Below are positions 10,846 to 58,346 of a stretch of DNA of 64,000 nucleotides, piece by piece. Below the pieces are notes generated by a model. It saw nothing but the letters and a program-made list of their open reading frames with translations, did no database searches and had not been told where the DNA came from. The translations under genes were made by a program, and so were the position numbers. The stretch spans positions 77,996,001 through 78,060,000 of the forward strand of contig OX597817.1 in the NCBI GenBank assembly GCA_951406725.2, written 5' to 3'. This stretch comes from Octopus vulgaris (lineage: Eukaryota). The first letter of the stretch is position 1; each line of letters opens with the position of its first letter.

Positions 10846-11500
10846 AAAGAGCACCATCCAAGTGGGATCATTGCCAGAGCAGCTAACTGGCTTCCATGCA
10901 GGTGGCACATAAAAAGATCCATTCAAGCATGATCATTACTAGCATCGCCTTACTGGCACTTGTCCCGGTGGCACGTGAAAAAAACATTCAAGCAAGGTTG
11001 TTGCTAGTGCCGCTGGACTGGCTCCTGTGCAGGTGGCATGTAAAAAACACCATTTGAGCATGGCCATTGCCAGTACCGCCTGACTGGCCCTCATGCCGGT
11101 GGCATGTAAAAGCACCCACTACATTGTCGGAGTGGTTGGCGTTAGGAAGGGCATCCCACTGTAGAAATTCTGCAAGATCAGATTGGAGTCTGGTGAGGCT
11201 ATCTGGTTCGCCAGTCCTCAGTGAAATCGTACGTTAAAACATTGATGATAATGATGTTGATGTATGTATGTGTATATGCTTGTATGTCTGTATTTGTCCC
11301 CCTCCCCATCGCTTGAAAACCAAGGTTGGTGTTTTTATGTTCCCGTAACTTAGCAGTTGAGCAGAACAGAGTGATAGAATAAGTACTATGCTTACAAAGA
11401 ATAAATCCTGAGGTCGATTTGGTTGACTAAAGGCTGTGCTCCAGCATGATCACAGTCAAATGACTGAAACAAGTAAAAGAGTAAAAGAGAGAGTAAAGAG
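10633..11500 (+). mobile_element. SINE A with a multi-module family D element (about 10845-11262) in its central microsatellite
   Basis: A head 10633-10800, (TA)n, four D modules plus terminus, then A tail 11270-11500. Confidence 0.85.
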
Positions 11501-28139: not shown

Positions 28140-28495
28140 TGTTCATGGCTGTTGCCAGTCTCACCTGGCCCCCGTGCCAGTGGCACGTAAAAAGCACCAT
28201 CCGTTCGTGGCCGTTGCCAGCGCCGCCCCGTCTGGCCTCCGTGCCGGTGGCACGTAAAAGCACCATCAGTTCGTGGCCGTTTGCCAGCACCGTCTGGCAC
28301 CTGTGCGGGTGGCACGTAAAAAGCACCCACTACACTCGCGGAGTGGTTGGCGTTAGGAAGGGCATCCAGCCGTAGAAACACTGCCAGATCAGACTGGGCC
28401 TGATGCAGCCTTCTGGCTTCACAGACCCCAGTTGATCCATCCAACCCATGCTAGCATGGAAAGCGGACGCTAAATGATGCTGCTGATGATGATGA
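28140..28495 (+). mobile_element. Young family D element with three modules
   Basis: Three gtgcc(a/g)gtggcacgtaaaa(a)gcacc-type units, then gttggcgttaggaagggcatccag..(gat)n; CpGs intact. Confidence 0.9.
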
Positions 28496-43269: not shown

Positions 43270-43790
43270 TATGCATTGTCTATTTTATCTGAATTGTTAA
43301 GACCAAGTATTCAAAATAGTGTTGATAGTATGCGAAAATGAAGATACCTCAAACAAGCAAAGCTAGTTGAAATCAAGAAAAAGATATACATAGGCATGTA
43401 CAAGGGAATGTTCAAAGAAAGACTTTATAACTATGAGCCACTTTTAGACACAAATAAAACAAATTCCAATCACTAGTAAGTAAAATTTGCTAAATGCTAA
43501 ACTGGAACGTTGAGTAAAGTGTTAAAAACGTCATTGAAAATCGAAGTGATATGTAAACAAACCAAGAAAATTTGGTCATTGCAAAATAGAAAGAATACAC
43601 TTTCTATTTAATTCAAAGAGGCATGGAAATTGTCTACATTACAAAGCAGTTATAAAGTCTTTCTTTGAACACTCTCTTGTACATGCCTATGTATATCTTT
43701 TTCTTGATTTCAACTAACTTTGCTTGTTTGAGGTATCTTCAATTTTGCATACTATCAACACCATTTTGAATACTTGGTCTTAACAATTCA
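43270..43790 (+). mobile_element. Penelope-like retroelement remnant: GIY-YIG endonuclease fragment within a 143-bp inverted repeat
   Basis: From 43387 reads YIGMYKGMFKERLYNYE, resembling the PLE motif YIGxTxxxFKxRxxNH; arms 43290-43432 and 43648-43790. Confidence 0.65.
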
Positions 43791-45062
43791 TCAGGTGTAT
43801 TTATGCAGATGAATTAATTCTATCCATCTGGTAAATCCTACCTCCCCACACCAAATTAGCAGTACCACACACCATAGATCTGGGAGGATACAGCCTGCAC
43901 GTTTTACTTTCCTGTCTTAAAATCTTCAGCACTTAGACATCATTCCACACAAATGAGTACCATCCCAATATCATAATATAGTAACATTATTATTTCTGGA
44001 GCTATACAAAATATTTTAGAAAATTCATATAACTATTTACAAAATTACTGTTTTTGTCTCCACATCCCCCAAACCCTACAAATACATCAACATTGAAATT
44101 TAGATATAATTTTAATATCAATCTTTATAGATTTTGCAAAGGACATAACTTACTCTAAATCTTAGTTACCTCACCTACCAAAAATTTATACTTACTTTCA
44201 GATATGGCATTTCCTCGTGATATCTCATAAATTACTGTCAGTCCCATTCTTGGTACTCACTGACACTGTTTGATGACTGAACAAGACGATTAGACTTTGC
44301 TTTTATCCTAAACAAATTTAGATATCTTCGCTTGAACATGAAACGTGAGTTGATATGAAAAAATATAAAAACCATTATTTCAAATGCTGCACCTATCATG
44401 AAACAAAGAGCATATGTCTACACACACACACACACTAATGCTCACATATACACACTATATGTATATGCATATGAAATATAGACAGTTATGAAATAGTTAC
44501 ATATACCATATATATTTGCACACACACAGATATGTAGTTCACCAACACATAGGTTTATCTCTATATGTATATACACATATACATACATACATGCATACAT
44601 ACATATATACACATACCTATTTTTAGACATCTATATATGCAGTCAAAGATTGTCATATAGACATATTAATAACTAACCCTGACCACTTCCTCCATTCCAT
44701 TAGCTCTTTCATATCTAAATTTAATTTTACTGCATGCATGTATGTATGTGTATATATGTATATACTTATACATACATAGATACATACATACGTATGTATA
44801 TATACCACCATGCAAATATATACATGTACATATATATATCTATTTACATATACATATATAAATATATATATTTATATACATATATATACACACTCACACA
44901 CACACATATATAGGTACACACATACATACATGTACACAACATGTAAAACTTATAAATACATAAATCTATTTCACTTGAGTATTTAATGAAGTATGTCTGC
45001 AAATATATTTAACATATATCACAGACATACATACTTGCACACTAAGAAGTAAGCACGCATAC

Positions 45063-52301: not shown

Positions 52302-52339
<38 letters not shown>

Positions 52340-52792
52340 TCAATAATAATAAAGGGTAAAATGAATGAATTAATTAATAATTATACCAAGTAGTTTGGTA
52401 TGTTAAAAGAACCGTTATCGGTAAACTTATACAAAAATTCTATAATTATGAGTATAATTATAATTAGTGTTCAGCAAATATTTGCTTCACCACATACCAA
52501 AATTTAGAAATAGCTGTTAAAACTATTATTTCACTACCATAAGAAAATCTCCCAGACAGCAATACTCAACAACTCACACAGTTAAAGACAGAAAAAACAA
52601 TGAATCCAGCCAGCTTCAATTATTTTTTCTCTCTTTACCTGTGTGAGTTGTTGAGTATTGCTGTCTGGGAGATTTTCTTATGGTTGTGAAATAGTAGATT
52701 TAACTGCTATTTCTAAATTTCGGTATGTGGTGAAGCAAATTTTTGCTGAACCCTAATTATAATTATACTCATAATTATAGAATTTTTGTATA
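52340..52792. mobile_element. (TA)n-embedded element with a fold-back hairpin (arms about 177 bp)
   Basis: Arms 52428-52604 and 52615-52792; loop tccagccagc; by eye more than 90% complementary. Confidence 0.85.
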
Positions 52793-52809
52793 TATATATA
52801 TATATATAT

Positions 52810-53006
52810 TGGTAGAGTTTACGAAAAAAACAAAAGACAAAGACAGGTGGTGTACAAAACAAACAGTATTAGTATAACGCTCAGGAATTGAAAAAGTCTT
52901 CTACGTTTCAAGCCTATGCTCTTCTACAGAAAGGGACACAGAAAAAACAAGGAGAGAAACAAAGAGAGAAAAAAATGTGTGTAGTGGCTAACGATCTATC
53001 ATGGTG
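52810..53006 (-). mobile_element. (TA)n-embedded short element with a hammerhead-like motif (52896-52937)
   Basis: Minus strand gtcccttt-CTGTAGA-a-gagc-atag-gctt-GAAA-cg-TA-gaagac; core has an A6>U variant. Confidence 0.5.
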
Positions 53007-53031
<25 letters not shown>

Positions 53032-53040
<9 letters not shown>

Positions 53041-53400
53041 GAATGAAATAAAAATCCAAGGCCATGAAAAATTTCAGAACATTTATAAAGAGAAGGTCTT
53101 ACAGCTGTTTCCGGGATATTTTACATGTCCCTTCATCAGAGACGGTATGAGAAAATGGTTAAGCAATAGTTATTCTAGATGAGATATGAAATAGACAGTG
53201 AAATCTTTCACAGCCTTGGATTTTTATCACATTCTGTTAGATTTTTTATATATACGTATGCTGATATATGACCTACGTTTGACTCCTTATTCGCATAATC
53301 ACCAAACCTGGAGCTTAACTATAGTCTGTTCATAGCACTTACTCAGCATTACCTAACACATCTGGGTCTTCTTGACACCATTACCTCTCATAAAGTCTAC
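53032..53400 (-). mobile_element. (TA)n-embedded Penelope/retrozyme-like element with 41-bp inverted repeats enclosing a hammerhead motif
   Basis: IR arms 53036-53076 and 53199-53239 (36/41 match); segment 53270-53397 recurs at about 58500-58625. Confidence 0.65.
53096..53143 (-). ncRNA. Minimal type I hammerhead ribozyme motif
   Basis: Minus strand gtct-CTGATGA-agggacatgtaaaatatcccg-GAAA-cagctg-TA-agac: helix I gtct/agac, helix II ggga/tccc, palindromic helix III, GUA cleavage triplet. Confidence 0.7.
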
Positions 53401-53411
53401 ATATATATATA

Positions 53412-53766
53412 TCAAAATCGAAATTAATCAACATCAATGGAACTTGTAGCTGTGATACCCGTGCCGGTGGCACATAAGAGAGCCATCCGATCGTGGCCAT
53501 TGCCAGCGCCGCCCAGACTGGCCTCTGTGCCAGTGGCATGTAAAAAGCACCATCCGATCATGGCTGTTGCCAGCCTCGACTGGCATGTAAAAAGCACCCA
53601 CTACACTCACGGACTGGTTGGCGTTAGGAAGGGCATCCAGCCATAGAAACATTGCCAGATCAGACTGGGCCTGGCACAGCCTTCTGGCTTCCCAGACCCC
53701 AGTTGAACCGTCCAACCCATGCTAGCATGGAAAGCGGACACTAAACGATGATGATGATGATGATGA
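53412..53766 (+). mobile_element. Family D element
   Basis: Modules plus terminus ggaaagcggacactaaacg(atg)n. Confidence 0.88.
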
Positions 53767-58037: not shown

Positions 58038-58346
58038 ATCCGATCGTGGCTGTCTGCCAGCCTTGCCTGGCCTCCGTGCCGGTGGCACGTAAAAAGCACC
58101 ATCCGACCGTGGCCGTTTGCCAGCCTCGTCTGGCACCTGTGCCGGTGGCATGTAAAAAGCACCCATTACACTTATGGAGTGGCTGGCGTTAGGAAGGGCA
58201 TCCAGCCGTAGAAACATTGCCAGATTGGACTGGGCCTGTTGCAGCCTTCTGGCTTCCCAGACCCCAGTCGCACCGTGCAACCCATGCCAGCGTGGAAAGC
58301 AGACACTAAATGATGATGATGGGGATGATGATGATGATGATGATGA
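58038..58346 (+). mobile_element. Second family D 3' end in tandem
   Basis: Closely similar to 28140-28495. Confidence 0.88.

What the first reader, a model, noticed from the sequence alone, without database searches (positions are those of the whole stretch)
52340..53400. Three ribozyme- or hairpin-bearing mini-elements stacked in one (TA)n array: candidate Penelope-driven retrozyme-like system
Seen: three unrelated short non-coding elements lie back to back, each bounded by (TA)n. They are a ~177-bp-arm hairpin (52340-52792), an element with a hammerhead-like motif (52810-53006), and an element whose 41-bp inverted repeats enclose a near-canonical hammerhead (53032-53400). Established: Penelope-like elements (PLEs) carry minimal type I hammerheads in their pseudo-LTRs, often form inverted terminal structures, and some lineages target microsatellites; retrozymes are non-autonomous hammerhead-bearing retroelements. 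Inference: these are non-autonomous, TA-targeting PLE derivatives mobilised in trans, possibly by elements like the GIY-YIG remnant at 43.3 kb. I cannot tell whether they have been described in this lineage.
Basis: partly seen in the sequence, partly recalled or inferred. Interest (0 to 1): 0.72.

Follow-up and report, generated by a model that had tools for sequence, protein, structure and literature searches.

The report
Three stacked Penelope-type transposon ends
The three pieces are the tail ends of three different repeat families, each with thousands of copies, that likely landed one after another in the same TA repeat; two belong to protein-coding Penelope-like retrotransposons and one to a small non-coding repeat likely moved by such elements, so this is mostly ordinary apart from an unusual, fixed change in one family's predicted self-cutting RNA.

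Summary
The three elements are real and abundant, but they are not one retrozyme system.
E2 (52811-53006) is the 5'-truncated 3' end of a Neptune-type Penelope-like element (PLE). E3 (53033-53393) is the truncated, part-inverted 3' end of a Hydra-type PLE. Longer copies of both run through a long 3' UTR into RT/GIY-YIG coding sequence.
E1 (52340-52792) has no hammerhead here. It is the inverted end of a ~570-bp non-coding, circularly permuted family whose longer copies carry a canonical minimal type I hammerhead. No ORF-bearing parent and no tandem pair of hammerheads was found, so it is retrozyme-like but not a shown retrozyme.
All three families end at (TA)n, which explains the stacking. The 43.3-kb remnant is near-unique and broken.
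Inverted ends, tails, minimal hammerheads and TA targeting are published PLE features. The notable detail is E2's core: U replaces A6 in 98 of 100 sampled copies, while the free positions N7 and H17 vary. This scan already noted a U6 core, head-to-head PLE ends and two-start retrozyme-like families on other DNA of this genome. Cleavage is untested.

The parts
52305..52338 (.). (TA)n tract at the tail end of E1
   Evidence: TRF
52340..52615 (-). E1 main arm: unit positions ~387 to 570, continuing into the ~100-nt tail; begins 14 nt downstream of the family's predicted cut, so it holds no hammerhead
   Evidence: BLAST to the family unit; unit
52619..52792 (+). E1 inverted 5' arm (unit positions ~402-570, no tail), ending at the family's other fixed 3' end
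52787..52810 (.). (TA)n tract shared by the E1 short arm and the E2 3' end
   Evidence: sequence
52811..53006 (-). E2: 5'-truncated 3' end of a Neptune-type PLE family; 7 differences in 194 positions from its subfamily consensus
52896..52935 (-). E2 minimal type I hammerhead motif: core 52929-52923 with U at position 6, one extra A before a 4-bp stem II, no stem III loop, predicted cut after 52902
   Evidence: activity untested
53007..53035 (.). (TA)n tract between E2 and the E3 inverted arm
   Evidence: TRF
53033..53202 (-). E3 inverted 5' arm, ending at the family's internal AT-rich 3' end; carries the hammerhead
53094..53145 (-). E3 minimal type I hammerhead motif: core 53139-53133 (U4 here; C4 in 58 and U4 in 40 of 100 family copies), palindromic stem III, predicted cut after 53100
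   Evidence: activity untested
53199..53393 (+). E3 main arm: last ~45 nt of the pseudo-LTR plus a ~150-nt tail of a Hydra-type PLE family
53401..53412 (.). short (AT)6 tract after the E3 tail
   Evidence: sequence

Best explanation
The locus holds the 3' ends of three different TA-flanked repeat families, likely inserted independently into one (TA)n tract by Penelope-like (PLE) target-primed reverse transcription: E2 and E3 are truncated copies of ORF-bearing Neptune-type and Hydra-type PLEs, and E1 is the inverted end of a ~570-bp non-coding family likely moved in trans. Shown: family membership, fixed 3' ends at (TA)n, variable 5' ends, inverted arms, the links of E2 and E3 to RT/GIY-YIG sequence, and E1's circularly permuted unit with a canonical hammerhead core upstream of the part kept here. 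Inferred: a GIY-YIG endonuclease nicks (TA)n; the RNA is primed at one of two AT-rich sites, giving a short end and a tailed end; early termination, or priming from the second strand, gives truncation and the inverted arm; each insertion leaves (TA)n on both sides as a target for the next. The hammerhead is predicted to cut the master transcript as a dimer and set the template's 5' end. The window copies are likely inert by-products.
For: Multi-copy families; 7,174 and 626 exact pattern matches for the E2 and E3 hammerhead regions, control 0. (TA)4 within 25-30 nt of the 3' end in 33 of 43 E2 ends, 13 of 20 E3 tail ends and 22 of 25 E3 short ends, and in 25 of 36 and 20 of 37 E1 ends at its two sites, against a 7-8% background. 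E3: four fetched loci (L140, L141, L142, L145) align over 1.8-2.2 kb at 79-84% from ORF to hammerhead; the ORF has a CxCX5C linker and no CCHH, the Hydra traits in PMC8557442. E2: 7 of 25 pattern-sampled loci have Neptune-type EN sequence (one of the 7 supplied the query), and L171 runs RT, CX2-5CxxC, CCHH EN, ~700-nt UTR, hammerhead, (TA)n. E1: 570-nt unit, longest stop-free frame 62 aa, core invariant but for N7 in 35 copies, stem I covaries. A second of the three families occurs in 22 of 180 loci, 7 within 100 nt.
Against: No intact full-length PLE was found; every linked ORF is broken, and Pfam gave only sub-threshold GIY-YIG hits (E 0.0011 and 0.039) and none for the RT pieces. Clade names rest on motifs compared by eye, with no tree. 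E1's non-autonomy rests on absence in a sample (0 of 84 loci with a PLE protein hit; 1 of 112 later), and most loci came from top-40 lists biased toward the query. The order and independence of the three insertions are inferred, only loosely backed by divergence (3.6%, 6-7%, 8%). No cleavage or expression data.
Confidence: 0.85

Rival explanations
1. E1's family is also just the terminal repeat region of an autonomous PLE whose ORF-bearing master I did not sample, so none of the three is non-autonomous.
For: Same two-end, inverted-arm anatomy as E3. One locus (L243) joins a Hydra-type ORF fragment directly to an E1 copy. My samples were small and query-biased.
Against: Upstream of the hammerhead, E1 copies run through a ~200-nt linker into their own tail, and 27 of 68 hammerhead-bearing arms continue into the preceding unit. 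Flanks of 35 arms starting in the linker or hammerhead share only inverted arms of the unit or common repeats. The Hydra family at L243 showed no E1 match in 24 of 24 other loci.
Confidence: 0.15
2. E1's family is a true non-LTR retrozyme that spreads through a circular RNA copied by rolling reverse transcription.
For: Circularly permuted non-coding unit with a conserved canonical core; copies up to ~1.45 units long; the circular fold is somewhat more stable than shuffles, z -2.2 on 40 shuffles.
Against: None of 68 hammerhead-bearing arms has two complete hammerheads and no dimer or multimer appears among the 40 best long hits. 26 of 27 longer-than-tail arms start at or after the predicted upstream cut, which fits a linear cleaved template better than a circle. 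The hammerhead is of the minimal PLE type, and the unit is longer than the 170-400 nt circles in PMC7229834.
Confidence: 0.3
3. All three are non-autonomous retrozyme-like minis mobilised by elements like the 43.3-kb remnant.
For: Short non-coding TA-bounded pieces, two with hammerhead motifs; many E2 copies begin near the same 5' point (biased by the query length).
Against: E2 and E3 continue upstream into their own ORFs; 613 E2 copies extend past that 5' point by exact pattern. The remnant is near-unique and had no tblastn hit from E2- or E3-linked protein pieces.
Confidence: 0.05
4. E1 and E3 are MITE-like DNA transposons defined by terminal inverted repeats.
For: Long inverted arms and TA flanks.
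Against: The hairpin turning point and arm length differ from copy to copy, one arm carries an extra tail, and many copies have no inverted arm (inverted arm in 27 of 66 E1 loci). E3 links to RT and GIY-YIG sequence.
Confidence: 0.02

Closest known systems
Hydra-clade C-terminal EN+ PLEs (PMC8557442; includes Hydra-1_Obim of Octopus bimaculoides) - for E3
   Same: CxCX5C linker, no CCHH in the EN, similar RT-C and thumb blocks, hammerhead in the 3' repeat, (TA)n target, inverted 5' copy and tail.
   Different: A different family: three motifs from E3's hammerhead region were absent from that paper's supplement and the Hydra-1_Obim hammerhead differs. Tail ~150 nt rather than 30-40 nt; UTR ~1.25 kb; position 4 is C in 58 of 100 copies.
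Neptune-clade PLEs (PMC8557442) - for E2
   Same: DKG motif, RT core, CX2-5CxxC linker, CCHH GIY-YIG EN at the C terminus, hammerhead near the 3' end, microsatellite target.
   Different: Hammerhead core carries U6 family-wide. No tailed second end was seen in the copies read.
Minimal type I hammerheads of metazoan PLEs (PMC4209133)
   Same: Extra base between positions 9 and 10.1, short stem I, absent or palindromic stem III implying dimer activity; mostly single or inverted copies from truncated PLEs.
   Different: The variants I saw described are U3-A8 (PMC4209133) and A6C and U4C (PMC3088659); I saw no A6U. E1's motif has a ~45-nt loop II.
Metazoan non-LTR retrozymes (PMC7229834; bioRxiv 10.64898/2026.07.22.740005) - for E1
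   Same: Short non-coding unit with a type I hammerhead, head-to-tail junction, proposed PLE origin and PLE-dependent mobility.
   Different: No two-hammerhead tandem seen; minimal rather than canonical-architecture hammerhead; PLE-type two-ended inverted insertions into (TA)n; circular RNA not shown.

Membership tests
EN+ PLE (E2 family, Neptune type) | PLE RT followed by C-terminal GIY-YIG EN, colinear with the 3' end | tested here: met
   L171 read through RT, EN, UTR, hammerhead; broken ORF; Pfam GIY-YIG E 0.0011, below cut-off
EN+ PLE (E2 family, Neptune type) | CX2-5CxxC linker and CCHH motif | tested here: met
   Seen in L160 and L161 translations; definition from PMC8557442
EN+ PLE (E2 family, Neptune type) | RT phylogeny places it in Neptune | not tested
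   No tree built; by-eye match to supplement alignments only
Hydra-clade PLE (E3 family) | C-terminal GIY-YIG EN without CCHH; CxCX5C linker | tested here: met
   L140-L142 translations; Atlas GIY-YIG clusters at 0.94; Pfam E 0.039
Hydra-clade PLE (E3 family) | N-terminal RWK and DKT motifs | not tested
   All linked copies are 5'-truncated at or after RT motif C
PLE insertion anatomy (all three) | 5' truncation, inverted 5' copy, tail at one end, microsatellite target | tested here: met
   E2 shows truncation and TA target, with an inverted piece in few copies and no tail seen
Minimal type I hammerhead | Canonical core C3 U4 G5 A6 N7 G8 A9 plus G12 A13 A14 (E1 family) | tested here: met
   35 copies, core columns 32-35 of 35, N7 variable; 29 pattern-sampled copies show all four bases at N7. 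The window copy lacks the motif.
Minimal type I hammerhead | Canonical core (E2 family) | tested here: not met
   Position 6 is U in 98, C in 2, A in 0 of the first 100 of 7,174 matches; the other core positions are conserved
Minimal type I hammerhead | Canonical core (E3 family) | tested here: inconclusive
   Position 4: C 58, U 40, A 2 of the first 100 of 626 matches; the window copy has U
Minimal type I hammerhead | Self-cleavage | not testable with these tools
   Needs an in vitro assay
Non-LTR retrozyme (E1 family) | Non-coding short unit with a type I hammerhead | tested here: met
   570-nt unit, longest stop-free frame 62 aa
Non-LTR retrozyme (E1 family) | At least two consecutive units each with a complete hammerhead | tested here: not met
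   0 of 68 arms; none among 40 scored long hits; a sample, not the whole genome
Non-LTR retrozyme (E1 family) | Circular monomer RNA | not testable with these tools
   Only assembled contigs of runs not on record as RNA were available
Non-LTR retrozyme (E2, E3 families) | No coding sequence in the element | tested here: not met
   Both link to PLE ORFs

The most novel reading that the evidence does not exclude
Two things may be real biology rather than decay. First, a Neptune-type PLE family with over 7,000 copies keeps a working hammerhead with U at the near-invariant core position 6: only the chemically free positions N7 and H17 differ between its subfamilies, so selection appears to hold an A6U ribozyme that standard searches miss. 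Second, E1's family is a 570-bp protein-less PLE parasite between a pseudo-LTR and a retrozyme, whose longest insertions stop at the upstream hammerhead cut, a genomic record of in vivo cleavage defining a linear template.
Probability: 0.35. Interest if true: 0.6.

Novelty: new member of a known kind. Interest (0 to 1): 0.3.

Why it matters
As a locus it is ordinary: it shows how TA-targeting PLE ends pile up and can be mistaken for MITEs or retrozymes in repeat annotation. The A6U core matters if it cleaves, because A6 changes are reported to lower activity (A6C in PMC3088659) and descriptor searches that demand A6 would miss thousands of motifs per genome. The E1 family offers a testable case of a non-coding PLE dependent, the relationship argued for in a 2026 preprint mainly from vertebrates.

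Tried and rejected
Rfam did not detect these minimal hammerheads. Folding single motifs gave no stability over shuffles (z 0.09, 0.70, -0.30), as expected for dimer-type motifs, so it is not evidence either way.
My first reading, that the window's U4 in E3 is only CpG decay of a C4 consensus (52 C, 13 U of 68), was weakened: in 100 pattern-sampled copies U4 (40) far exceeds the mirror change at G5 (7) and decay at a neighbouring CpG (about 20 per strand), so U4 masters likely existed (hand count).
A search for E3 tails running on into a 5' region gave 9 hits with no shared continuation.
The 43.3-kb remnant as driver was rejected.
L243, a Hydra ORF fused to E1, was followed up: that family showed no E1 match in 24 other loci and looks older (78-83% identity), so the fusion does not identify E1's partner.
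No RNA holder was listed as RNA on record. Contigs of four guessed-RNA runs showed no joint at the candidate intron, and their head-to-tail joints also exist in genomic DNA; neither is evidence.
Lünse et al. (RNA Biol, PMC5785218), the paper most likely to list PLE hammerhead variants, is not held. Supplements of the 2026 preprint and one supplement file of PMC4209133 were not seen and may bear on novelty.
An unbiased sample of E1 copies anchored on the hammerhead's 3' half was not obtained, so a parent sharing only the hammerhead and downstream part with E1 is not excluded.

Full report
Observation. The coordinates hold. E1 has 174-nt arms at 94% complementarity, E3 has 41-nt inverted repeats with 36 matches, and TA tracts separate and flank the three pieces. 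A hammerhead descriptor, written after I had seen the motifs, found two hits in the window, both on the minus strand in E2 and E3, and none in 30 shuffles. Rfam found no hammerhead. The genome is 2.8 Gb in 227 contigs; I infer an octopus-like host from that size and from the likeness of E3's ORF to Hydra-1_Obim. Each piece has thousands of first-look candidates, of which 40 were scored per search.

E3. Against a family copy, the window element is an inverted arm (53033-53202, holding the hammerhead) fused to a main arm and ~150-nt tail (53199-53393). Inversion points differ among copies. Walking upstream led through ~1.25 kb of low-complexity UTR into a GIY-YIG EN and an RT thumb. Four of six 9-kb loci fetched were chosen for E3, and all four align over 1.8-2.2 kb from ORF to hammerhead. 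The ORF has a CxCX5C linker and lacks CCHH, the Hydra traits given in PMC8557442 (passages), and its RT-C and thumb blocks match that paper's Hydra alignment by eye (supplement). Pfam gave only E 0.039 for GIY-YIG; the Atlas gave GIY-YIG clusters at 0.94. Core position 4 is C in 58, U in 40 and A in 2 of the first 100 of 626 pattern matches (counted by hand).

E2. The 30 best copies end at one point before (TA)n or a derived repeat, and a few extend upstream. A pattern on that extension found 613 copies, control 0. Of 25 loci taken in genome order, 7 have Neptune-type EN sequence (one supplied the query). L171 reads RT with the DKG motif, CX2-5CxxC linker, CCHH EN, ~700-nt UTR, hammerhead and (TA)n. 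The hammerhead region matched 7,174 times with the core left free; in the first 100, position 6 was U in 98, C in 2 and never A, while N7 was A 49, G 34, C 11 and U 6 (counted by hand; U may be CpG decay of C). Between the N7=A (42 copies) and N7=G (11 copies) consensus lines, only N7 and H17 differ from C3 through the 3' strand of stem I. Contigs of four runs from four coded organisms showed differences of 10% or more within the motif only at N7, one loop II base, G16.2 and H17, not at position 6. This pattern fits selection on a hammerhead fold with A6U; it does not show cleavage.

E1. The window copy is an inverted arm plus a main arm with a ~100-nt tail, starting 14 nt downstream of the family's predicted cut. 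Longer copies carry a hammerhead whose core is nearly invariant in 35 copies except N7, with a compensated stem I pair (10 copies A-U, 9 G-C). With four core positions left free, 29 matches showed all four bases at N7. Upstream of the hammerhead, copies run through a linker into the family's own tail, closing a 570-nt unit with no frame over 62 aa. Of 95 arms in 66 loci, 73 end at one of two fixed sites, and 27 loci have an inverted arm. PLE protein pieces hit 0 of 84 loci and 1 of 112 partly redundant loci later. That one, L243, is a fusion to a different, older Hydra family that showed no E1 match in 24 other loci. Of 68 arms with a full hammerhead, 27 reach into the preceding unit; 26 of these start at or after the predicted cut, one exactly on it, and one starts 17 nt before it at a hairpin turn; none has two hammerheads. 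The numbers are small and the sample is query-biased.

Why stacked. (TA)4 follows the 3' ends in 54-88% of cases across the five end classes, against 7-8% background. A second of the three families occurs in 22 of 180 loci (two are one place), 7 within 100 nt. Divergence from consensus is 3.6% for E2, 6-7% for E3 and 8% for E1, compatible with separate events, E2 last. The 43.3-kb remnant has 2 candidates genome-wide and is broken.

Mechanism. Shown: family links, fixed 3' ends, variable 5' ends, inversions and core conservation patterns. Inferred from PLE literature: EN nicking of (TA)n, target-primed reverse transcription from one of two AT-rich RNA sites, and dimeric hammerhead cleavage of the master transcript.

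Comparison with print. PMC8557442 (passages, supplement rows) describes truncation, inverted 5' copies, tails, (TA)n targeting and Hydra and Naiad families in Octopus. PMC4209133 (parts 1-2 of 4, supplement passages) describes minimal PLE hammerheads, mostly single or inverted copies of truncated PLEs. PMC7229834 (parts 2-3 of 6) and bioRxiv 10.64898/2026.07.22.740005 (parts 1-3 of 5) define non-LTR retrozymes and argue PLE origin. PMC3088659 (passages) reports low-activity A6C and U4C variants. PMC13282606 (passages), an Octopus vulgaris repeat annotation, lists PLE families and has no occurrence of 'hammerhead' or 'retrozyme'. PMC6155905 and PMC6765202 were seen as passages. Searches for A6U found no description, but Lünse et al. 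was unavailable, so absence from print is not established.

Earlier notes of this scan, seen after I had reached these readings, report a fixed U6 core, head-to-head PLE ends and two-start hammerhead repeats on other DNA of this genome. Look-ups by the E1 and E2 sequences and near this place returned nothing.

Verdict. Interest 0.3, carried by the A6U core and the E1 family.

Noticed in passing
E1-family hammerhead, e.g. L123 unit positions ~319-378: The long loop II holds a 5' splice-site-like hexamer (22 of 35 copies) and a branch-point-like motif followed by an AG at the end of stem I (31 of 35). Splicing of this ~60-nt stretch would remove the ribozyme's 3' half. No junction was seen in contigs.
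   Followed up: partly
L243 (G000:C1:98503565+), locus 530-2005: A Hydra-type ORF fragment of a third family is fused, without (TA)n, to an E1 copy; the rest of that ORF is missing downstream.
   Followed up: yes
L266 (G000:C20:26486808+): The same third Hydra family, cut near the end of its EN, is joined to an E3-family 3' end with hammerhead and tail; possible template switch or later insertion.
   Followed up: no
window 43288-43434 and 43655-43795: The GIY-YIG remnant is itself partly duplicated in inverted orientation (143 nt, 96%), the same anatomy as PLE ends.
   Followed up: partly
window 53435-53750: A common dispersed repeat with internal near-duplications follows E3; similar copies lie at 1145-1270, 10895-11111, 28165-28327 and 58038-58163. 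It resembles octopus SINEs (label recalled, not tested).
   Followed up: no
L037 and L047: E2-family 3' ends occur as direct pairs separated by a short (TA)n, probably re-insertion into the tract left by the first.
   Followed up: no
L179, L184, L185, L190, L200, L202-L205: 5' ends of E1 copies cluster at unit positions 229-239 (9 of 29 pattern-sampled loci) with unrelated flanks; a truncation hot spot or a sampling effect.
   Followed up: partly
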